A stretch of DNA of 16,956 nt, from positions 1-16,956 of the forward strand of contig JAHLVW010000039.1 of NCBI GenBank assembly GCA_019058275.1, given 5' to 3'. Made by a program: the position numbers and the translations under genes. This document shows, piece after piece, positions 3,412 through 16,953 of this stretch. Position 1 is the first letter of the stretch. Every line of letters starts with the position of its first letter. Under the pieces are notes generated by a model, which saw nothing but the letters and a program-made list of their open reading frames with translations, had not been told where the DNA came from and did not search any database. Source of the stretch: Candidatus Heimdallarchaeota archaeon (GTDB taxonomy: Archaea; Asgardarchaeota; Heimdallarchaeia; JABLTI01).

Positions 3412-3642
3412 TCAATTTGTATCTATTCCACATCGTTTTCGAGGAATCTTAAGGACAGATTGACAATTAGGACAGGTTAGGTATATCCATTTAGAAGTCT
3501 TAGATTTGAAAAGAAACTTACGAAAATCTCCACATTCAACACAAAGATGCAAAATACTAGTAACTTCAGCTAGTTCTTTTCGCCACTCGAGAGGATCTTC
3601 CGCTTCCTGATAGCTAACACGAGTAACCAAACGCTTAGGCAA
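3412..3642 (-). CDS. Small C4 zinc-finger protein, WRKE family paralog 3 (76 aa)
   Basis: CVECG...CPNC. Shares EDP..WRKE..E.....LC..CG.F..F...CP.C...LK.PR.R with the genes at 3652-3915 and 6310-6567. TTG start with GAGGTG SD overlapping the upstream stop codon. Confidence 0.75.
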   Translation of the reverse strand: MPKRLVTRVSYQEAEDPLEWRKELAEVTSILHLCVECGDFRKFLFKSKTSKWIYLTCPNCQSVLKIPRKRCGIDTN

Positions 3643-3651
3643 AAGAACACC

Positions 3652-3915
3652 TCAGGACTCCCACTTGGGTTTAGCCCACTTAGTCTCCATGCGGTTGCGC
3701 TTACGAGGAAGCTTGAGCTCTTTCTTGCATTTTGGACAGCTGAGAAAGATGTAGTAGGACTCTTTCTTGGAAAGCTGGAAGAAACTGAACTGTCCACAAC
3801 AAGAGCAAAGACGCTGGGTACGCATCATTTCTTGGACTTCCTTTCGCCAAAGAGAAGCTTCTTCTTCCTTATCATTCTGAAACCATGGGATGTACGTATA
3901 GTGACTGCCTGCCAT
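3652..3915 (-). CDS. Small C4 zinc-finger protein, WRKE family paralog 2 (87 aa)
   Basis: CSCCG...CPKC and basic tail PRKRNRMETKWAKPKW. About 68% identical by hand alignment (58/85) to 6310-6567. Confidence 0.85.
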   Translation of the reverse strand: MAGSHYTYIPWFQNDKEEEASLWRKEVQEMMRTQRLCSCCGQFSFFQLSKKESYYIFLSCPKCKKELKLPRKRNRMETKWAKPKWES

Positions 3916-5995: not shown

Positions 5996-6060
5996 TCTAC
6001 GAATTTCAAATATAAAACCATCATTTAGTGATTTTATTATTTCATTAATTATCCCTTCAT

Positions 6061-6249
6061 CTAGAGGTTCTCTAATTCTGAAAAATCGTAAAGCAAAATA
6101 ACGTTAAGAAAACGATTTTCCTTTAGTAAATACCTTTTAATTTCTTCATCATCTTTGGATTTCTCATCAAATTTTTTTCTATTAATTTTTATTCCCAAAT
6201 AGAAAATAATTTTTGCACATTTTCTAAGAAATCTATATCTATTACTCAA
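6061..6249 (-). pseudogene. 5' fragment of the HEAT-repeat gene, separated by an apparent 1-nt deletion near 6104-6105
   Basis: TTG start with GGTGA SD. Restoring one A (CTT AA- CGT to CTT AAA CGT) fuses ...LLKENRFL to RYFALRFFRIREPLDEGIINEIIKSLND...IRRMAGITLGEIG. Confidence 0.65.
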
Positions 6250-6309
6250 TTCCTTTTCACCATAATTTGGTATAATTATTGTTGTTATTTATATTTAAAA
6301 ATAATGGTG

Positions 6310-6567
6310 CTATTTCCACTTTGGTTTTGCCCATTTTGTTACCATGCGATTACGTTGGCGAGGAAGCTTGAGAACAGTCTGACAGTTAGGACAGGAAAAG
6401 TGAATGTAGTAAGGCTCCTTCTGAGCGAAGAGAAAGAGATGGAACTGACCACAGTGAGAACAAAGTTTCTGGGTACGCATCATTTCAAGAGCTTCCTTTC
6501 TCCATAGGGAAGGATCTTCACCCTTATCATTTGGAAACCAAGGCATGTAGGTGTGATGAGAGGACAT
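6310..6567 (-). CDS. Small C4 zinc-finger protein, WRKE family paralog 1 (85 aa)
   Basis: CSHCG...CPNC. Start moved from TTG 6594 to ATG 6567 by alignment with the 3915 paralog (MSSHHTYMPWF vs MAGSHYTYIPWF). Confidence 0.85.
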   Translation of the reverse strand: MSSHHTYMPWFPNDKGEDPSLWRKEALEMMRTQKLCSHCGQFHLFLFAQKEPYYIHFSCPNCQTVLKLPRQRNRMVTKWAKPKWK

Positions 6568-6668
6568 ACTTGAGATAGACGATTCTAAAAACAAAGGAAG
6601 ATGGTAGAGAAATAAAAGTATTTGGAGTTGAACTTAGCAATAGGTTCTTACATGTGAGCTGTTCCTAG

Positions 6669-6818
6669 TTACTTGCTTGAGAATCCTAGTATTTTCTTAC
6701 AGTTCGAACAGTAATAAGCAACCTTGTTTGTTTTCTTATCATCCTTCTTCAGATTATTCCAGCAGATATCTTCGAACCCCAACTTTTCTTCACAGTGTAG
6801 GCTAATTACTTCGGTCAT
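6669..6818 (-). CDS. 49-aa zinc-ribbon-like microprotein missed by the ORF track
   Basis: Hand translation: MTEVISLHCEEKLGFEDICWNNLKKDDKKTNKVAYYCSNCKKILGFSSK*. Its homolog at 4022-4137 shows conservative amino-acid changes, which supports coding status. Confidence 0.7.
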   Translation of the reverse strand: MTEVISLHCEEKLGFEDICWNNLKKDDKKTNKVAYYCSNCKKILGFSSK

Positions 6819-7169
6819 ACTTTCCTATCACATTTTCAGTGTGAGTGCATTATTTTCATTTTGTTAGTTTTAAACCTTATTATTCTGTTATTTTGTTGTG
6901 AAAAAATTTATGAGAAGTGTAACCTCTCTTTCAAAAATCAGTTTTCATCATGAATTTATAAAAAGATTAACAAAACATATTAATTCAACTATCTCAGATA
7001 AACAATTGTTTGATTAAATTTCAGTTTATATTGATTCCTTCCTTTTCCCCTTGTCATAAAATTTAATTATATATGGACGAATATTTATTATTGGAGAGAT
7101 GCATTCAATACTTGGGAAACTACACTCAGTGTTTTTCCTTGGGTTTCTCTCTAAAGTTATACATTTAGG

Positions 7170-7269
7170 AGATAGTCAATGAGTGGGAGGGTAAACAACT
7201 AACTTGCGATAGAACAAAGCTCTTTTAGTTCTTCAATCTCTCATGAACCTCCCGCTACTTTGATTTTCT
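7170..7269 (+). ncRNA. Candidate structured small RNA (long hairpin) carrying SD-led mini-ORFs
   Basis: 7182-7190 AGTGGGAGG pairs with 7248-7256 CCTCCCGCT (one G:U). 7174-7179 AGTCAA pairs with 7260-7265 TTGATT. Inner stem AGAAC 7211-7215 pairs with GTTCT 7228-7232. G:U pairs favour the + strand. Confidence 0.35.
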
Positions 7270-7330
7270 ACAGGTATTTTAAATGAAAAACTTGATATTC
7301 AAGGACTCAGAGCAATATGGACAAATTAAT

Positions 7331-7434
7331 TCTTCAATAGTCTTCTTAATAGTACTAGCAAATAAGAAATATCAGTTGTTAGAAAAAGATATATAGTATC
7401 TTTCCATCTACATATAGTAAGGAAAGTTTAAAGC
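7331..7434 (-). CRISPR. Candidate degenerate mini-CRISPR (pseudo-repeat, 36-nt spacer, pseudo-repeat) upstream of cas6
   Basis: Minus 7434-7400 GCTTTAAACTTTCCTTACTATATGTAGATGGAAAG and minus 7363-7331 ATTTGCTAGTACTATTAAGAAGACTATTGAAGA both resemble the array repeat GTTTGAATCGTACTATTGTAGTATTGAAAT. They are separated by 36 nt. Confidence 0.4.
7421..7433 (+). promoter_or_regulatory. Putative archaeal BRE/TATA promoter of the cas operon
   Basis: Purine-rich GGAAAG followed by TTTAAAG about 65 nt upstream of the cas6 TTG. A strong SD (GGGAGG) precedes the start. Confidence 0.35.
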
Positions 7435-7496
7435 ATTAATTCCTAAATGTACAATGAGAAGAATTTTGAGAGAAATAGATTTAGGGAGGAATAGTT

Positions 7497-8255
7497 TTGA
7501 GAGCAATCTTAACATTAAGATGTGAGAACTCATTTTTATATGAAGCTAATGTGTACCACAAACTTCAAGGTTTTATATATTCTTTAATAAGAGATACTGA
7601 ATATTCATCGCTTCATAACAAAAAAGACTATAAATTTATTTCTTTTTCCAATGTTTTTCCACCAAAAAATGCTAAAATGGGTGATAAGAGAACTCTAATA
7701 ATTTCTTCTCCTGAAAATAGATTAATAACAATCATGAAAAATAGTCTAGATGCTTTACAAGGAGAAATCATAAATATCGGTCACATGAGATTCTTCCTTG
7801 AAAGAACCACAATACTCAGACCAACAATTGAAAAGGATTTGTGTTTAATAACAGGAACTCCAGTTATTGTTAGAATCCCCAAAGAGAAATTTTCTGCTTA
7901 TGAATCTCATTGGGATGTGAATTACGATTATATATATTGGCGTTCTAATTATCCATTAGAGTTATTTATAGAACAAATCGAACAGAATTTACGAAAAAAA
8001 TTTCAAAGCTTCTATGGATATGAATTATCTCTAGAAAAAGCATTTGAGAATTTTAATTTTAAAAAGCAAGTATGTAACCACATAACCATTAATGGAAAGG
8101 AAGTAAAGGTTATAGGAACTTTATGGGAAATAATTTTTAAGAACCTTGATAAAAATCAACGGAAATTTGTATCTTTCATGTTGGATTGTGGTATTGGGGA
8201 ATTAAATACACTAGGCTTTGGTTTTTTAAATAAAGTACGGAGTAAATCAAGTTGA
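7497..8255 (+). CDS. cas6: CRISPR-associated endoribonuclease Cas6
   Basis: YHKLQGFIY, FISFS and TPV motifs, C-terminal glycine-rich loop GIGELNTLGFG, first gene of the operon. Confidence 0.95.
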   Translation: MRAILTLRCENSFLYEANVYHKLQGFIYSLIRDTEYSSLHNKKDYKFISFSNVFPPKNAKMGDKRTLIISSPENRLITIMKNSLDALQGEIINIGHMRFFLERTTILRPTIEKDLCLITGTPVIVRIPKEKFSAYESHWDVNYDYIYWRSNYPLELFIEQIEQNLRKKFQSFYGYELSLEKAFENFNFKKQVCNHITINGKEVKVIGTLWEIIFKNLDKNQRKFVSFMLDCGIGELNTLGFGFLNKVRSKSS

Positions 8256-10108
8256 TTGAAAGTGTAAGACATATCGGTGTTTATCTTCGAGAAAAAGATG
8301 AGTTGAATCTGGTTTCTATTTTAACAGAAACATCATCTTTGAAAAATGTTGAAAAGGTTGTATGCTTGATTTTTTCATTGAATGAAAAAGCTATTCTTGA
8401 TAAAATTACTATTGAAGATTTTGACATCAATAAATCTTTGAAATATCTATTCCGTTCTGGAACAACTCGTGGAACAAACATTACACCCATAGCTAAAATC
8501 ACTGATGATATAAGGAAAACACTAGATAACAAAATAATCAATTGGTTTAAAGAAAATCATGATAAAGGCTCTGTCTCCGAGAAAATATGGCGATTTTTTG
8601 ATGGTCTTAGTGAAAAATCAAAAGTTGAATTAGATCAAAAATTAATTTCTGAATGTTCAAAACTCAATACAAAAAAGCAACATTTACTAACAATCAAAAT
8701 TGGTCTCAATAAAAGTAAAGAGAAGTATATTGGAGAAATAAAGGAATTTGAAGAGGTTATGATAGAACGTTCTATAAGAAGGTTTAGCTTTCATAAATCA
8801 AAAGGTGAATCTAAAGGAGATGGTTTTTGCCTTCTTTGTGGTGATGAGAAGAACGTTCTAGGGTTTGCTTCTCCTTTTGCGTTTTATACTCTTGATCAAC
8901 CAGGTTTTGCGTATAATTTTAATCAAAAAGATTCTTGGAAGCAGCTACCAATATGTTTAGAATGCGCTTTGGATATGGATTTAGGCAAACAGTACTTAGA
9001 TGAAAAACTAGTATTTCCCTTCTTTGGTTATCGTTATTACTTTATTCCTAAATTTGTTTTTACTGATATTGATGAGGGAATAATGGAAGATATTGATGAA
9101 TTTTCTTATAGAAATAAACCGAATTATTTAGAAGGTCCTCTGATTGAAGAAGAAAACTGGCAATCAATAATTCAGAAAAAAGGAGATGTCATGCTTTTAG
9201 TTTTCTTGTTCTTTGAAACCCAACAAACAAGAGTCATTATCAAACAATATGTTGAAGATGTTTTACCTTCTTGGTTAAAGACAATTATTGACTCATTTAA
9301 CAATGAAATAAAAGAAAAAACAATTTATCAAGAGGATATAATAAAAGATCTTTTTGGTTCCAAAGCAACCGGGAATTTTAAGCAGTTTCGAGGAAGCAAA
9401 AAAAGAAAGCTAACTATTTGGTCTATGGTTAGAGAATTTTATCCTTCATCTAAAATTGAGGGAATTTATGACAAGTACTTTATTGATATAGTTGGTGATA
9501 TTCTAAAAGGAAAAACAATTAATGAAAGACTACTTGTTAAATCATTCGTTTTTCGAATTAGGAGTATATTTAGAAAAAGAGAGAATTGGAACCTTAATGA
9601 TATTACACTGCAATCTTTACTATTACTATCTATTTTGAAAAAAATAGAATTGATAAAAGGAGAAAAGAATATGGAATATGACAAAATATTGGATAATATG
9701 GATAGTAAAAATGAAAGAGCAAGAAAAGTAAAAGAATTTCTTATTGAACACAAAAATTCATTGAATTCATCCGAGAAAAAAGCCTTGTTTTTACAAGGAG
9801 TTCTTACAAGATTTCTATTAGCGATTCAATATCAAAATCTGAGATCAGAACCTTTTAGAGAAAAGCTCTATGGGATGCAATTAGATAAACGTAAAATCAA
9901 GAAACTATTTCCACAAACAATTGAAAAACTTAGAGAATACAAAGTAAGTTACAAATGGTTAGAAGAAGCTATTGCAAATTATTTGCTCTTATCTGATAAT
10001 AAGGGATGGTCTATAACGAATAACGAAATCAGTTATTATTTTAATCTGGGTTTGACCTTAGGTCAAACATTCAAATCTAAAAAAAAGGAGGAAACTTATG
10101 ATGAGTAA
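8252..10108 (+). CDS. cas8b: Type I-B large subunit Cas8b (Csh1/TM1802-like)
   Basis: 618 aa between cas6 and cas7. CLLCG...FYTLDQPGF...LPICLEC zinc motif, YYFIP, and C-terminal YYFNLG. 4-nt overlap with cas6. Confidence 0.9.
   Translation: MIESVRHIGVYLREKDELNLVSILTETSSLKNVEKVVCLIFSLNEKAILDKITIEDFDINKSLKYLFRSGTTRGTNITPIAKITDDIRKTLDNKIINWFKENHDKGSVSEKIWRFFDGLSEKSKVELDQKLISECSKLNTKKQHLLTIKIGLNKSKEKYIGEIKEFEEVMIERSIRRFSFHKSKGESKGDGFCLLCGDEKNVLGFASPFAFYTLDQPGFAYNFNQKDSWKQLPICLECALDMDLGKQYLDEKLVFPFFGYRYYFIPKFVFTDIDEGIMEDIDEFSYRNKPNYLEGPLIEEENWQSIIQKKGDVMLLVFLFFETQQTRVIIKQYVEDVLPSWLKTIIDSFNNEIKEKTIYQEDIIKDLFGSKATGNFKQFRGSKKRKLTIWSMVREFYPSSKIEGIYDKYFIDIVGDILKGKTINERLLVKSFVFRIRSIFRKRENWNLNDITLQSLLLLSILKKIELIKGEKNMEYDKILDNMDSKNERARKVKEFLIEHKNSLNSSEKKALFLQGVLTRFLLAIQYQNLRSEPFREKLYGMQLDKRKIKKLFPQTIEKLREYKVSYKWLEEAIANYLLLSDNKGWSITNNEISYYFNLGLTLGQTFKSKKKEETYDE
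9671..10108 (+). CDS. cas11: Putative internally translated small subunit Cas11 (145 aa), in frame within cas8b
   Basis: In-frame ATG at 9671 preceded by AAAGGAG. The downstream part (FLQGVL...Q...YYFNLG) is the Cas11-like helical domain. Confidence 0.65.
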   Translation: MEYDKILDNMDSKNERARKVKEFLIEHKNSLNSSEKKALFLQGVLTRFLLAIQYQNLRSEPFREKLYGMQLDKRKIKKLFPQTIEKLREYKVSYKWLEEAIANYLLLSDNKGWSITNNEISYYFNLGLTLGQTFKSKKKEETYDE

Positions 10109-11099
10109 ATTATTAGAAAAAAGATCAGAATTAGTGTTTTTATATGATATTAGGGATGGAAACCCTAATGGCGATCCTATGGATGAGAATAAACCTAGGA
10201 TAGATGAAGAATCAGGAATTAATATTGTAACAGATGTTCGGTTAAAAAGAACAATTCGTGATTACTTATATGATTCCTTAGGAGAAGAAATCCTCATACG
10301 AACAATACAACTAAAAGACAGCTTAGCTATCCAAGATGGCAAAACTCGTGCACTAGATTTTTGTGATACTAGTAAAAAAACTTTCCAAGAACAACTCAAG
10401 AGCATTGAAAATAATGTACTTGAACAATGTATAGATGTAAGGCTTTTTGGAGTAACATTACCTATTGAATTAAAAGATGGTTCTAAGAAAAAAACAACCT
10501 CCTTTAAAAGAACTGGTCCAGTTCAGTTCAATATGGGTCGTTCTCTACACCAAGTTGAAATAAAACATATTAAAGGAACTGGAGCATTTGCTTCAAAAGC
10601 AGGCGAAGGAGTAGAACGAGAACAACAAACATTTCGAGACGAATACATCCTTCATTATAGTTTGATCTCTTTCCATGGATTAATTAACGAAAATACTGCA
10701 CAACATACCAGTCTTTCAGAGAATGATGTTCAATTACTTCTTGAAGGAATATGGAATGGAACTAAAGGGTTAATCTCTCGCTCAAAAATGGGCCAAATGC
10801 CACGATTATTGTTAAGAGTGGAATACAATACTAAAAATTTTCATATCGGTGATTTAGACAAAGGAATAAAACTTACTTCAGACCTTGAAGAAGTCTCTAT
10901 TCGTAGTCCAACTGATTATTTCTTAGATGTTGATAAATTATTGCAAAATATAACAGCTCATAAAGATAAAATTGATAACATTTTTATCAAATTTGATGCT
11001 GATATTAATTTTCGAAAAGCTGGAAAAATAATCTCATTACATGAAGCTATTAAATTAGCAATAGGAAAAGAAGTAATTGAAATTAATTTCAAAAAATAA
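10098..11099 (+). CDS. cas7: Type I-B backbone protein Cas7 (Csh2)
   Basis: RSELVFLYD..DGNPNGDP..EN.PR, VTDVRLKRTIRDYL, DVRLFG, TGPVQF and SRSK motifs. AAGGAGG SD. Confidence 0.95.
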   Translation: MMSKLLEKRSELVFLYDIRDGNPNGDPMDENKPRIDEESGINIVTDVRLKRTIRDYLYDSLGEEILIRTIQLKDSLAIQDGKTRALDFCDTSKKTFQEQLKSIENNVLEQCIDVRLFGVTLPIELKDGSKKKTTSFKRTGPVQFNMGRSLHQVEIKHIKGTGAFASKAGEGVEREQQTFRDEYILHYSLISFHGLINENTAQHTSLSENDVQLLLEGIWNGTKGLISRSKMGQMPRLLLRVEYNTKNFHIGDLDKGIKLTSDLEEVSIRSPTDYFLDVDKLLQNITAHKDKIDNIFIKFDADINFRKAGKIISLHEAIKLAIGKEVIEINFKK

Positions 11100-11101
11100 T
11101 T

Positions 11102-11848
11102 GTGTTGGTTTCGGTGACGTCTTTGAACATTGATAAAGTACTTACATTCACATTATGGGGTGATTGGGCTCACTATCGGAGAGTCTATACTACTACATCT
11201 TCACTCACATACCCATTTCCAACAAGGACTGCTTTATCCGGTTTAATTGCAGGAATACTTGGTTTAGAAAGAGATACTTACCATGAAATATTTTCAAAAG
11301 AGACAAGTGCATTTGCATTAAATATTCTTAATCCTGTCAAAACCTTGCAAATAAATTTCAACTTAATACGAACAAAACTCGGTTTTATATTAAGAGACAT
11401 TAAAGAAGAAGGAAAAAGGTCACAAATACCAATAGAATTCATTAAGGAACCAAAATGGAAAATCTACATTTGGTTAGAAGATAAAAGTCACTACCAAGTA
11501 CTAAAAAGACACTTACGAGAGCACACTTCCATATACACACCATGTTTAGGATTAAGTGAGCTAATTGCTAATTATCATTATGAAGGAGAAAAAACTGTAA
11601 GTCACCCTTATATTGTGAAAAAGGGTGAAACAGCTCAAATAGATGCTATCGTTAAAAAAACATCTGAAACATCAATCAAAGTGGAAAAGGGTAAGAAGTA
11701 TGGTCATGTTAAAGTTCCTGGATTCATGAATAGTGAACGTATAGTTACAAAATACCTAGAATTGTTCTATGAACAACAAGGCAAACCAATAACCATATCT
11801 AGAGGAGTCTATTACAGGATAGGAAAAGAAAATGTCATCTTCTTCTAA
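11102..11848 (+). CDS. cas5: Type I-B Cas5
   Basis: F.LWGDWAHYRR.....SLTYPFPTRTALSGLIAGILG and YTPCLGLSE motifs. The true start may be a few codons downstream. Confidence 0.95.
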   Translation: MLVSVTSLNIDKVLTFTLWGDWAHYRRVYTTTSSLTYPFPTRTALSGLIAGILGLERDTYHEIFSKETSAFALNILNPVKTLQINFNLIRTKLGFILRDIKEEGKRSQIPIEFIKEPKWKIYIWLEDKSHYQVLKRHLREHTSIYTPCLGLSELIANYHYEGEKTVSHPYIVKKGETAQIDAIVKKTSETSIKVEKGKKYGHVKVPGFMNSERIVTKYLELFYEQQGKPITISRGVYYRIGKENVIFF

Positions 11849-14360
11849 CCTATTATCTCATCCAGAGATTCTACTGAAAGACCATTTAGAAACTGTTGGG
11901 AATATTGCAAAAGAAACAATGGCATCAAAGAAACTTGAAAATAGCGAGCTTTATACTAAGATTGCTTACTTTATTGGGATTTCACATGATTTTGCAAAAG
12001 CAACAACATTCTTTCAAGAGCTATTAAAACAAAAGAAACGCACAAGAAAAGCAAATCATAGTTTTTTGTCAGCTATTTTTGGTTATTATATTGTAGAGAA
12101 ATACTTGGAAAAAATAGAGAAGCTAGAAGACAATGAATTCTTGCCACTAATTGCTTTTATTGTTATCAGAAGCCATCATGGAAATCTTCCAAATTTGCAT
12201 GGAGAAAACAGTTTGTATAATAAATTTCTGCAAAAAGAGTTTGATACCAAGGAACTGAGAGAACAATTAGAAAATACTAATCAGCAAGAAGTAATTGACA
12301 TTTATGACCATTTATTGAAAAGCGAATCAAATCTAAATAGCAAGCTGTTAATAAATGACTTTTATAATGAAATGATGAATTCAAGAAATTCAGATGAACC
12401 AGAAATCATTACCAAGATTATTGCTTTGCTAAAAAAGATTAGTCGGAAAAAAGATCTAGCTAATTATTTCATGATAATGCTGCATTATTCTGTACTAATT
12501 GATGCAGATAAAATCACTGCATCAGGAACAGAAATTCCTGAAAGAATCGAGAACATACCAAAAATGATTGTTGAGCACTACAAACAAACTAAATTTGGAA
12601 AACCAAAATTAGAAATTAACATCATACGAGAACAAGCTTTTTGTGAAGCGCTTAAATCAGCAACTAGTCTTGACTTGCATGAAAATAAGAGAATTCTCAC
12701 ATTAACACTACCAACAGGTTGTGGGAAAACGTTAACAGGATTAGCAAGTGCATTATTACTAAGAGATAGAATTAAAGAAACTAAGAAATTAGATTTCGTT
12801 CCAAAAATCATCTATTCATTACCTTTCTTAAGCATAATAGATCAAAACAGTCGAGTGTTTGATGAAATCTTAAATCTAGAGATGCCCAAAATTTCCAAAG
12901 AAGAAACAATACCATCTAATCTTATGTTAAAACACCATCATTTAGCAGAAATAGCTTACTTTGCAAAAACATTTGATGAAATTATTGAATTACCAATAAG
13001 CCAATCTTTACTTCTCACAGAAAGCTGGCATTCAGAAATAGTAATAACAACATTCGTGCAGTTCTTTCATAGTTTAATATCTTATAGGAATAGAACATCA
13101 AGAAAATTTCACAATATAACTAATTCTGTGATAATATTAGATGAAATACAATCAATACCACATAAGTACTGGTTGATTATTAAAGAAATGTTAGAATTTC
13201 TTGCAGAAAATTTTAACTGTTTGATAATTCTAATGACTCCAACAAACCCTTTAATTTTTAAAACTGAAGAAACAGTAAAATTAATTCGACAACCTGAAGA
13301 GTATTTTAAGAAATTCGATAGAATAAAAATTAACTATAATCATGAACCTTTGAAATTTAATGACTTTAAAGGGCAACTACTTGAGGAAATATTAGCAACA
13401 GATAACGATATAATGGTTATTTTAAATACAATCAATACATGCAAAGAATTATACCAATTTATACGAGATGAACTTGAACAAGAAAGAACAGAGACTTATA
13501 TGGATAATTTTGGGATTTGGATTAGTGAAAAGGAAGAATTGTATTGTCTTTCAACACACATTATTCCAAAACATAGACTAGAGAAAATAAGAAAAATTGC
13601 TGGAATCGATGACAAAAAGAAGAAAAGAAGAATAATTATCACAACACAATTGGTAGAAGCAGGAGTGGATGTTTCAGTAGATAAAATTTATCGAGATTTT
13701 GCTCCCTTAGATTGCATAATTCAAGCTGCTGGAAGATGCAATAGAAATAATAGAGATCAAAAGGGGTTAGTAGAGATAATTCGTTTACAAACAGACAATA
13801 AAAAAGAATTTTGTGACTATATTTATGATAGAACCTTAACTGCTGCAACCGATGAAATATTGAGAGAAGCATTTGAAAAAAATAATTGGAATATAATTTC
13901 TGAACATGAATTCATATTTTCGACCAATAATTCATATTTTGATACGATAAATAATCGAAAATCAGATCAAAAATCGAGAGAATTATATGAAAAGGTAGCT
14001 AAATTGAGATTTAAAGATCTATCTGCATTTCAACTCATCGAAGATAGAGGGACTATTCCAATTTATATAGAAGTAAATCCTATTTCTAAAGAAATAAGAG
14101 AACGTTTTGAAGAAGAACTAGAAGATGCAAAAGGTTATGGAAAACGTGCTGTAAGAGTGAAGTATAAGGAAAAAATCAATGACTATACAACCTCAGCATT
14201 CATCAGAAAAAAGGATGTTAATTTGTTCAAAACTTTACCTGAAGTTGCTTCTAACTCTTATATGTTATATGTACCACAAGAAAACTTGGATGAATGGTAT
14301 ACATTAGATATTGGTTTATGGTTACAATTGGATTCTAGCATTAATATGAGAATGCTCTAA
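11832..14360 (+). CDS. cas3: Cas3 HD nuclease-helicase fusion
   Basis: HD domain (HL, HDFAK, HHG, DAD), Walker A LPTGCGKT, DEIQ, TQLVEAGVD and QAAGRCNR. Motif III reads MTPT. Confidence 0.95.
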   Translation: MSSSSNLLSHPEILLKDHLETVGNIAKETMASKKLENSELYTKIAYFIGISHDFAKATTFFQELLKQKKRTRKANHSFLSAIFGYYIVEKYLEKIEKLEDNEFLPLIAFIVIRSHHGNLPNLHGENSLYNKFLQKEFDTKELREQLENTNQQEVIDIYDHLLKSESNLNSKLLINDFYNEMMNSRNSDEPEIITKIIALLKKISRKKDLANYFMIMLHYSVLIDADKITASGTEIPERIENIPKMIVEHYKQTKFGKPKLEINIIREQAFCEALKSATSLDLHENKRILTLTLPTGCGKTLTGLASALLLRDRIKETKKLDFVPKIIYSLPFLSIIDQNSRVFDEILNLEMPKISKEETIPSNLMLKHHHLAEIAYFAKTFDEIIELPISQSLLLTESWHSEIVITTFVQFFHSLISYRNRTSRKFHNITNSVIILDEIQSIPHKYWLIIKEMLEFLAENFNCLIILMTPTNPLIFKTEETVKLIRQPEEYFKKFDRIKINYNHEPLKFNDFKGQLLEEILATDNDIMVILNTINTCKELYQFIRDELEQERTETYMDNFGIWISEKEELYCLSTHIIPKHRLEKIRKIAGIDDKKKKRRIIITTQLVEAGVDVSVDKIYRDFAPLDCIIQAAGRCNRNNRDQKGLVEIIRLQTDNKKEFCDYIYDRTLTAATDEILREAFEKNNWNIISEHEFIFSTNNSYFDTINNRKSDQKSRELYEKVAKLRFKDLSAFQLIEDRGTIPIYIEVNPISKEIRERFEEELEDAKGYGKRAVRVKYKEKINDYTTSAFIRKKDVNLFKTLPEVASNSYMLYVPQENLDEWYTLDIGLWLQLDSSINMRML

Positions 14361-14382
14361 AAAAAATAATTCTTAGAGGAAA

Positions 14383-14883
14383 ATGACTGTGAAAATAACA
14401 GGAGTTATGGTTCAATATTATGTTACATGTAAAAGAGAGTTATGGTTTTTTGCTAATGGTATTAATTTAAACTATGAAGATGAGAATATTTTACTTGGTA
14501 GATTACTACAAGAAAAGAGTTATGCAAAAGAAAACAAAGAAGTTCTTATTGATAATACCATTAACATTGATTTTGTAAAAAAAGGCAGGGAAATAATTAT
14601 TCATGAAATAAAAAAGTCAAGCAAACTACCTTTTGCTGTGAAGGCTCAAACTCTATACTATTTATGGTATCTAAAGAAAAATAAAAACATTAATGCAAAA
14701 GGAGTAATTGTGTACCCAAATGAAAAGAAGAGAGATGATGTAGTATTAGAACCACAAGATGAACAATACATAAAGAAAATTACTGAATCAATACCTGTAA
14801 TCGTTAATGCACAAAAACCTCCTGAAGCAATTAAAAAACCATATTGTAAAAAATGCAGTTATTTTGAATTTTGTTGGTGTTAA
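14383..14883 (+). CDS. cas4: Cas4 exonuclease
   Basis: ITG..VQYY..CKRELW, ID, HEIKKS and C-terminal CKKCSYFEFC Fe-S cysteines. Confidence 0.95.
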   Translation: MTVKITGVMVQYYVTCKRELWFFANGINLNYEDENILLGRLLQEKSYAKENKEVLIDNTINIDFVKKGREIIIHEIKKSSKLPFAVKAQTLYYLWYLKKNKNINAKGVIVYPNEKKRDDVVLEPQDEQYIKKITESIPVIVNAQKPPEAIKKPYCKKCSYFEFCWC

Positions 14884-14885
14884 AA

Positions 14886-15875
14886 GTGAAAGAAGATTAT
14901 TACATTATCCGGAGTGGAGACCTTGTTAGAAAAGGAAATACTATCTATTTTAAGACAGAGGATGAAAAGAGAGCATTACCAGTAGAAAACATTAATGCTC
15001 TGTATATATTCGGGGAAGTAACCATGAATAAAAGGTTCCTTGAATTCATAAATAAGAAAAAAATTCCAATGCATTTCTTTAACCATTATGATTTTTATGT
15101 TGGGACTTTCTTTCCAAGAGAATACTTGAATTCTGGATTGTTAATTGTAAAACAAGTTCAACATTTCTTGGATGAAGAAAAAAGGATGTTTCTTGCAAAA
15201 GAGATATTAAATGGAGCAAAACACAATATGCTTTCTGTTTTGAAATACTATCTAAGAAGAGGAAAAGAAGTGAAGAATTTTATTATAGAAATTGAAAACT
15301 ACTCTAAGAACTTCGATAATATGAATGATATTTCCTCATTAATGGGCTTAGAAGGAAACATAAGAAAAACCTATTATCAGTCTTTCAATAAAATATTGAG
15401 AGAAGGTTTTGCCTTTGAAGAGAGGGTAAAAAGACCACCAGATAATATGATAAATTGCTTAATATCTTTTGGAAATTCCCTTTTATATAGAACAGTATTG
15501 ACAGAACTATATCATACATATTTGAATCCAACAATAAGTTATCTTCATAAACCATCCGAAAGAAGATTTAGTTTATGCTTAGATATAGCAGAAATATATA
15601 AGCCAATAATTGTGGATCCAGTAATCTTTTCATTGGTAAATAAACAAAAAATAAATGAGAATTATTTTGATAAGAAACTCAAATACTGCTATTTAAACGA
15701 AAAAGGAAGAACATTATTTCTAAGGGAGTATGATCAAAAATTGCATACAACAATTAATTATGAAAAACTAAAAAGAAAAGTATCCTATAAAAGATTAATA
15801 CGTTTAGAATGCTATCGATTAGTAAAACATCTTATTGAAGATAAAAAATACTGTAGCTACAAGAAAAGTTGGTGA
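14886..15875 (+). CDS. cas1: Type I-B Cas1 integrase
   Basis: LMGLEG, RPP.NMIN.LISFGN, SYLH.P..RRFSL.LDIAEIYKP. GTG 14886, just after the cas4 stop, is preferred over TTG 14871. Confidence 0.95.
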   Translation: MKEDYYIIRSGDLVRKGNTIYFKTEDEKRALPVENINALYIFGEVTMNKRFLEFINKKKIPMHFFNHYDFYVGTFFPREYLNSGLLIVKQVQHFLDEEKRMFLAKEILNGAKHNMLSVLKYYLRRGKEVKNFIIEIENYSKNFDNMNDISSLMGLEGNIRKTYYQSFNKILREGFAFEERVKRPPDNMINCLISFGNSLLYRTVLTELYHTYLNPTISYLHKPSERRFSLCLDIAEIYKPIIVDPVIFSLVNKQKINENYFDKKLKYCYLNEKGRTLFLREYDQKLHTTINYEKLKRKVSYKRLIRLECYRLVKHLIEDKKYCSYKKSW

Positions 15876-15877
15876 AT

Positions 15878-16141
15878 ATGTATCTGATCATCGTATATGA
15901 CATTGCCACAGAAAGAGTAAATAAAGTACATACTTTCCTAAAGCGATATCTTAATTGGGTGCAAAATTCTGTTTTTGAAGGTGAAATAACTGAAAGTCAA
16001 TATAAAATCATTATAACTAGTATAAAAGCAATTGTAGAAGAAGCCAAAGATTCTATAATTATATATAGAATTAAAAGTAATAAATTTGTTGACAAAGTTC
16101 TAATTGGATTAGAAAAGGGCAAAGATGACCGTTTTATTTAA
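15878..16141 (+). CDS. cas2: Cas2
   Basis: MYLIIVYDI and YLNWVQNSVFEG motifs. ATG 15878 follows GGTGA and the cas1 stop. Confidence 0.95.
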   Translation: MYLIIVYDIATERVNKVHTFLKRYLNWVQNSVFEGEITESQYKIIITSIKAIVEEAKDSIIIYRIKSNKFVDKVLIGLEKGKDDRFI

Positions 16142-16252
16142 ATTATGTCGATGTTTATAAAGTATAGTGTCTATTGCAGGTCGACTGGATGATAGTTCTA
16201 AAAGAAGGTAGAAGAATGCTTGAAATAGGCAAAAACGACCGCTATAATACGT
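16142..16252 (+). promoter_or_regulatory. CRISPR leader
   Basis: Non-coding 111 bp between cas2 and repeat 1. TATA-like TTTATAAA at 16154-16161, flanked by inverted GTCGA (16147-16151) and TCGAC (16181-16185). Confidence 0.75.
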
Positions 16253-16953
16253 GTTTGAATCGTACTATTGTAGTATTGAAATTAAGTAATGCCAACTATT
16301 AATTGTGGATATAAAGAAGTTTGAATCGTACTAATTTACTATTGAAATTCCATTCATCAATATCTTGAACTAATGCTTCTTTTGTGTTTGAATCGTACTA
16401 TTGTAGTATTGAAATTACGTTCTTCCAGCCTTGAAAAGTTTAATTCCAAGTCGAATTTGAATCGTACTATTGTAGTATTGAAATTAAATTCCTTTAATTC
16501 TTCCATAAGGAAAATAAATAGTTTGAATCGTACTATTGTAGTATTGAAATTTGTTTCAACTGGTTGAGTAATTTTCTTAAATATAAAAGTTTGAATCGTA
16601 CTATTGTAGTATTGAAATAAACTTTATCAAAAAATGCTCTGTAAAAGATGTGATAAAGTTTGAATCGTACTATTGTAGTATTGAAATAAAGTTAATATAA
16701 AATTTTTGTCATAAATATAACTGGTTTGAATCGTACTATTGTAGTATTGAAATAAATTGAAGAATACATGAATGAAAAAAATGATACAAGTTTGAATCGT
16801 ACTATTGTAGTATTGAAATTCTGGTAGAATTGATATAATTGATAAAATTTTTGAAAGTTTGAATCGTACTATTGTAGTATTGAAATGAGAATTTTCACTA
16901 ATAGCAACTAGAGGTTTAGCATAGTTTGAATCGTACTATTGTAGTATTGAAAT
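16253..16953 (+). CRISPR. CRISPR array with 30-bp repeat GTTTGAATCGTACTATTGTAGTATTGAAAT; 11 repeats and 10 spacers of 36-39 nt, probably continuing past the window
   Basis: Repeats start at 16253, 16319, 16386, 16455, 16521, 16589, 16658, 16724, 16790, 16857 and 16924. Stem TACTA-TTG-TAGTA. The ATTGAAAT 3' handle gives + orientation. Confidence 0.98.

What the first reader, a model, noticed from the sequence alone, without database searches (positions are those of the whole stretch)
7331..7434. Hidden degenerate mini-CRISPR antisense to, and overlapping, the putative cas6 promoter
Seen on the minus strand: pseudo-repeat 1 ends TACTATATGTAG-ATGGAAAG versus the array's TACTAT-TGTAGTATTGAAAT. 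A 36-nt spacer follows (ATACTATATATCTTTTTCTAACAACTGATATTTCTT), matching the array's 36-39 nt range. Pseudo-repeat 2 has exact blocks TTTG, GTACTATT and TATTGAA, and its ACTATTGAA end matches the variant second repeat of the main array. Established: type I loci can carry degenerate mini-arrays (CreA/CreR) that guide Cascade to repress promoters through short seed matches, and solitary repeat units can act as RNA anti-CRISPRs. Inference: a Cas-regulating RNA. The only local target I see is an 8-nt match, TACTATAT (7419-7412, preceded by CCT), beside the cas6 BRE/TATA; this is weak. AT-richness inflates chance similarity.
Basis: partly seen in the sequence, partly recalled or inferred. Interest (0 to 1): 0.75.

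Follow-up and report, generated by a model that had tools for sequence, protein, structure and literature searches.

The report
Decayed mini-CRISPR upstream of cas6
Two worn-down copies of the CRISPR repeat sit just in front of this Asgard archaeon's CRISPR genes. They look like the small self-regulating guide RNAs already known from other microbes, but no convincing target for this one was found.

Summary
The feature is real. On the minus strand upstream of cas6 of a complete type I-B1 locus (probably Heimdallarchaeia, Asgard) lie two degenerate repeats around a 36-nt spacer. Neither is significant alone (p~0.3). The correctly spaced pair is: 1/4000 shuffles, 2/1690 real gene-upstream regions. 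It also fits the linked array's repeat better than about two dozen other repeats. Position, orientation and handle match known CreA/CreR mini-arrays.

It needs a one-base register shift and a CCT PAM, whereas four imperfect protospacers give TTA/TGA. No site in the locus has both the full seed and that PAM. The best candidates are weak: the cas6 TATA box (TTA PAM, two seed mismatches, p~0.02) and the array leader's TATA box (seed 1-10 intact, ACT PAM, p~0.03). A conserved ~180-nt hairpin RNA lies convergently next door; in a congener it recurs away from cas genes, again followed by a repeat handle, hinting at a creTA-like module.

Expression is untested. Conservation is uninformative (strains >97% identical; one relative has its own mini-array, another none). 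Best reading: a CreR-like guide of a known kind, possibly decayed. The scan already noted similar elements elsewhere, including another Asgard genome.

The parts
7400..7434 (-). pseudo-repeat 1; keeps the small internal stem and an 8-nt handle (7407-7400); its 5' part is the opposite strand of the putative cas6 BRE/TATA
7364..7399 (-). 36-nt pseudo-spacer; its first 11 nt are the complement of a TATA-like motif that is common in intergenic DNA of this genome
7329..7363 (-). pseudo-repeat 2; 13 of the first 17 repeat positions match; a short insertion precedes a second ATTGAA
7421..7433 (+). putative cas6 BRE (7421-7426) and TATA box (7427-7433); the TATA hexamer is palindromic and could also fire on the minus strand near 7404
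   Evidence: sequence; 52-bp divergent start rule from 10.1101/2020.01.31.928960; inference
7400..7426 (.). dyad CTTTCC...GGAAAG enclosing the repeat-like stem (fold z -3.2 for 7400-7434); alternatively an operator
7381..7396 (+). second BRE/TATA-like motif lying inside the pseudo-spacer; rival promoter for cas6
   Evidence: inference
7420..7439 (-). candidate target A: TTA PAM (7439-7437), then a protospacer over the cas6 TATA/BRE; seed 7/10 plus one wobble, mismatches at positions 3 and 9
   Evidence: p=0.019 over 15 positions; seed only p=0.30
16156..16168 (-). candidate target B: ACT PAM, then a match at seed positions 1-5 and 7-10 over the TATA motif of the array leader
   Evidence: (p=0.03)
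7043..7267 (+). conserved promoter-like motif plus ~180-nt structured RNA, with a Shine-Dalgarno site (7167-7171) and a start codon (7179) next to and inside the stem; convergent with the mini-array; candidate CreT-like partner
7497..8255 (+). cas6
   Evidence: TIGR01877; glycine-rich motif and invariant His/Lys kept
8252..16141 (+). cas8b1 (Csh1/TM1802), cas7, cas5, cas3, cas4, cas1, cas2: complete type I-B1 operon
16253..16953 (+). main CRISPR array, 30-nt repeat, 36-39-nt spacers; probably continues on contig C68 (same repeat at that contig's end)

Best explanation
A degenerate two-unit mini-array derived from the locus's own repeat that works like CreR. Steps: (1) it descends from the linked repeat (shown statistically, ~0.85); (2) it is transcribed on the minus strand, from the palindromic TATA box shared with cas6 or from an antisense start inside cas6 (inferred; a start near 7404 would give too short a handle, so this is unresolved); (3) Cas6b cuts at the pseudo-repeats to give a ~60-70-nt RNA with an 8-nt handle that loads into Cascade (inferred from CreA/CreR); (4) Cascade binds, without Cas3 cleavage, a TATA box of its own locus (the cas6 promoter via a TTA PAM, or the array leader) and damps transcription weakly (inferred; target not established).
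For: Pair statistics and specificity for the cognate repeat. Complete Cascade and Cas6 next door. Upstream-of-cas6, antisense placement is the published pattern, and 13-17% of archaeal I-B loci carry mini-arrays. Handle in pseudo-repeat 1 and 5' part in pseudo-repeat 2 are kept, as in CreA (PMC8501985). The best PAM-flanked site in 6850-7560 lies on the cas6 TATA box with the system's TTA PAM (p=0.019). The leader TATA site keeps the 10-nt Haloferax seed and has ACT, a Haloferax I-B PAM. The closest named Asgard Cas6 (L175, 55%) has a clear three-unit mini-array at the same place.
Against: No locus site meets the experimentally defined CreA rule of seed 1-5 and 7-11 plus the system's PAM (rule). 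Site A has a position-3 mismatch, and seed mismatches at 1-5 or 7 block binding in Thermotoga I-B1. Site B's ACT differs from the observed TTA/TGA. Both p-values are post hoc among several regions, and the seed is TATA-like, so matches to TATA boxes are inflated. The closest locus (L173, Cas6 58%) has no mini-array. No clear minus-strand promoter lies upstream of pseudo-repeat 1.
Confidence: 0.35

Rival explanations
1. A genuine but decayed mini-array (old regulator or array remnant) that no longer guides anything; the overlap with the cas6 promoter preserves part of it.
For: Repeat origin is well supported, yet no PAM-plus-seed target exists in the locus. Far more degenerate than the solitary repeats and mini-arrays of relatives (L175, G004:C362, G005, G026). 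Absent from L173.
Against: Spacer length, handle and inner stem are all kept. Published CreA repeats are as degenerate (11-16/30 between the two).
Confidence: 0.25
2. CreA-like antitoxin for the neighbouring structured RNA (7043-7267, +), forming a creTA-like addiction module inserted upstream of cas6.
For: The RNA is 78% conserved in a congener (G004:C374, no cas genes on that contig) and in three other assemblies. Its changes fit the plus-strand fold (2 compensatory and 5 one-sided pairs in two sequences). It has a Shine-Dalgarno site and an ATG/GTG start. In G004 it is again followed, 124 nt later (133 here) on the opposite strand, by 12 nt identical to the 3' end of that genome's cas-linked repeat (p=0.00025; distances). 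Neither RNA nor mini-array is in L173.
Against: Neither spacer has a PAM-flanked seed match in the RNA's promoter (best 8/10 with CCA, p=0.40). The G004 unit fails the pair test (p=0.24), and the DNA beyond 7267 is not alignable (p=0.25-0.88). Mini-ORF stops are not conserved, and there is no tandem pair of the rarest codons. Toxicity is unknown.
Confidence: 0.2
3. Chance likeness: the region is only the cas6 promoter, with two BRE/TATA motifs and a dyad operator.
For: Single units are not significant. About 33 equal-scoring non-array pairs exist genome-wide. The spacer's 5' end is a TATA-like motif that is intergenic in 14 of 23 other genome occurrences. The dyad folds at z -3.2.
Against: 0.1% empirical rate in upstream regions against a 13-17% prior; best fit to the cognate repeat.
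Confidence: 0.12
4. Trans-acting guide that silences the shared promoter of TnpB/LAGLIDADG cassettes (C11:88019 with TAA PAM and 13-nt match; paralogs C88 and C16 with AAA).
For: The only intergenic site with an exact 13-nt match plus a TNA PAM; it lies directly after a TATA-like motif upstream of a TnpB-type gene.
Against: 11-20% of control spacers obtain such an exact match and 33-47% an intergenic 11-position match. Two of three paralogs lack the PAM.
Confidence: 0.05
5. Decoy RNA (Racr-like) that titrates Cas6 or Cas7.
For: Solitary repeats occur away from arrays in congeners (G005:C150, C233).
Against: Chromosomal, two-unit, and much less similar to the repeat than those solitary repeats. 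No exact repeat found in viral contigs.
Confidence: 0.03

Closest known systems
Regulatory mini-arrays upstream of cas6 in type I-B loci (Shmakov et al., 10.1101/2023.03.03.530964)
   Same: Two repeat-like units, spacer-sized interval, upstream of cas6, opposite to cas3, no leader.
   Different: The upstream unit is not near-identical to the repeat; it overlaps the promoter itself; no 10-bp or longer PAM-flanked target.
CreR (Liu et al., 10.1101/2023.03.10.532045)
   Same: Degenerate mini-CRISPR at a cas promoter; handle kept in unit 1 and 5' part in unit 2.
   Different: CreR spacers have a clear PAM-flanked seed match to the promoter (15 nt in Salmonella); here the best matches are imperfect.
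CreTA of Halobacterium hubeiense and Haloarcula hispanica (PMC8501985, PMC9458426)
   Same: I-B locus, two highly degenerate repeats, adjacent small structured RNA with Shine-Dalgarno site and start codon.
   Different: No seed match to the neighbour's promoter; no conserved rare-codon mini-ORF; the neighbour is convergent and also occurs away from cas genes.
Racr / solitary repeat units (PMC10651486, abstract only)
   Same: Repeat-like RNA outside an array.
   Different: Racrs are solitary repeat units in viral genomes; this is a chromosomal pair.

Membership tests
CRISPR mini-array in a type I-B locus | Two repeat-like units cognate to the linked array, 20-60 nt apart, outside the array | tested here: met
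CRISPR mini-array in a type I-B locus | Upstream of cas6, antisense to the cas operon, without a leader | tested here: met
   the leader has no second copy in the genome
CreR/CreA | Linked intact Cascade and Cas6 | tested here: met
CreR/CreA | Divergent degeneration: handle best kept in unit 1, first 22 nt best kept in unit 2 | tested here: inconclusive
   Unit 1 handle 6/8 and unit 2 5' part 13/17 fit, but unit 2 also ends 6/8 and unit 1's 5' part aligns with gaps
CreR/CreA | Seed (1-5, 7-11) pairing to a PAM-flanked site in a cas or toxin promoter | tested here: not met
   Best locus sites: 7/10 plus wobble with TTA; 9/10 with ACT; 8/10 with TCC or CCA; PAM estimate from only four protospacers
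CreR/CreA | Expressed and Cas6-processed to a crRNA-like RNA | not testable with these tools
   No RNA run of this organism is available
CreR/CreA | Cascade-dependent repression | not testable with these tools
   Needs a reporter assay
CreTA | Adjacent toxin gene (small RNA or protein) | tested here: inconclusive
   Conserved structured RNA with Shine-Dalgarno site and start codon, but variable stop and no Rfam match
Racr / solitary repeat unit | Single near-intact repeat on a virus or plasmid | tested here: not met
   Two degenerate units beside a host cas operon

The most novel reading that the evidence does not exclude
The mini-array and the conserved ~180-nt hairpin RNA form a portable Asgard toxin-antitoxin-like module that sits at a cas promoter in one species and on a cas-free, mobile-looking contig in another. 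Alternatively, the TATA-complementary guide throttles the CRISPR array's own leader promoter rather than cas genes.
Probability: 0.15. Interest if true: 0.62.

Novelty: new member of a known kind. Interest (0 to 1): 0.3.

Why it matters
If functional, it extends crRNA-like autoregulation to Heimdallarchaeia, in a compact design where the guide gene overlaps the promoter it may block. That is an incremental addition to a class described in 2021-2023. It would matter more if the neighbouring RNA proved to be a new toxin family, or if the guide controlled the array leader, a target I did not find in the papers read here.

Tried and rejected
- Strain conservation: L011, L012 and Logan contigs are identical over 7331-7434 but >97% identical overall, so they are uninformative.
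- About 120 more distant cas6 loci (Cas6 36-52%) show no homolog of the element; family-profile hits at its level (~13 bits) are background.
- No RNA holder listed; this is not evidence either way.
- Rfam: nothing for 6000-7600.
- De novo promoter modelling did not converge on a usable motif.
- The 23-codon upstream ORF at 7455 (Met-Arg-Arg with two AGA codons) resembles H. hispanica CreT, but AGA is the main Arg codon here (20.8 per 1000); rejected.
- Six viral contigs match the first 18 spacer bases (best 21 nt with TGA, L367/L368), about what chance gives in that collection by my rough estimate; rejected.
- The second G004 repeat-like unit is better read as a BRE/TATA promoter (inference).
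- Targets for the L175 spacers in its cas6 5' region are weak (p=0.014 with a post hoc PAM class, 0.23 for the other).
- The 697-aa protein beside the G004 hairpin looked Cas1-like by eye but shows no match.
- The other arrays of the genome (C4, C77) fit worse than the linked repeat.
- The L011 genome could not be searched.

Full report
Context. The window is a whole 16,956-nt contig of a 4.1-Mb, 32% GC genome. It holds a complete type I-B1 operon, cas6-cas8b1-cas7-cas5-cas3-cas4-cas1-cas2, and an array with a 30-nt repeat. The second-closest Cas6 is annotated Heimdallarchaeota. The class also contains two single-contig genomes of 3.1 and 3.3 Mb, which from memory are the Heimdallarchaeum genomes. 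Heimdallarchaeia is therefore an inference.

Noticed in passing
L359:3323-5725 (own genome C88), L358, L357: Three divergent cassettes pair a TnpB/IS605 OrfB gene with a LAGLIDADG protein (~530 aa in C11 and C16; only a 148-aa ORF in C88) through a conserved bidirectional promoter. In C88 the TnpB is fused to an 8-oxoguanine glycosylase-like region (800 aa; Pfam hits just under cut-off). The promoter motif recurs in congeners G004 and G005.
   Followed up: partly
L257:14064-13968 (minus; G026): Leader-bearing two-repeat mini-array upstream of cas6 whose single spacer looks by eye like the complement of a tRNA-Cys 5' half; no second copy in that genome at one mismatch.
   Followed up: partly
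L175:2155-2321: Three-unit degenerate mini-array upstream of cas6 in a Heimdallarchaeota genome; two spacers match adjacent sites in the cas6 5' region weakly.
   Followed up: partly
L276:5933-5962, L275:4937-4966, L277:348-377, L344:6059-6088: Solitary, near-intact repeats in congeners G004, G005 (two copies with almost the same downstream spacer, no cas genes seen on C150) and G006.
   Followed up: partly
L259:801-4376, L268-L272: Conserved three-gene unit (697-aa protein of no known family, ~225-aa protein, PD-(D/E)XK nuclease) with about 12 relatives in changing neighbourhoods; looks mobile.
   Followed up: partly
own genome C77:19615-19960 (L360): Four degenerate 30-nt repeats of another type with no cas genes seen nearby.
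   Followed up: no
own genome C4 (L361): Array with a 37-nt repeat ending in the same handle; only one Cas6 of family PF01881 was found in the assembly.
   Followed up: no
window 7455-7526: 23-codon ORF starting Met-Arg-Arg at the predicted cas6 transcription start and overlapping the cas6 start; AGA is a common codon here.
   Followed up: yes
L011:18759-20730: A strain with a 97% identical locus has a different set of 29 spacers and no variant repeats; several of its spacers target contigs binned in congeners G004 (C89, C350) and G005 (C150), probably mobile elements.
   Followed up: partly
window 3412-3915 and 6310-6594; L173:3250-3707: The small zinc-finger genes upstream are also directly upstream of cas6 in L173, so they travel with this cas locus.
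   Followed up: no
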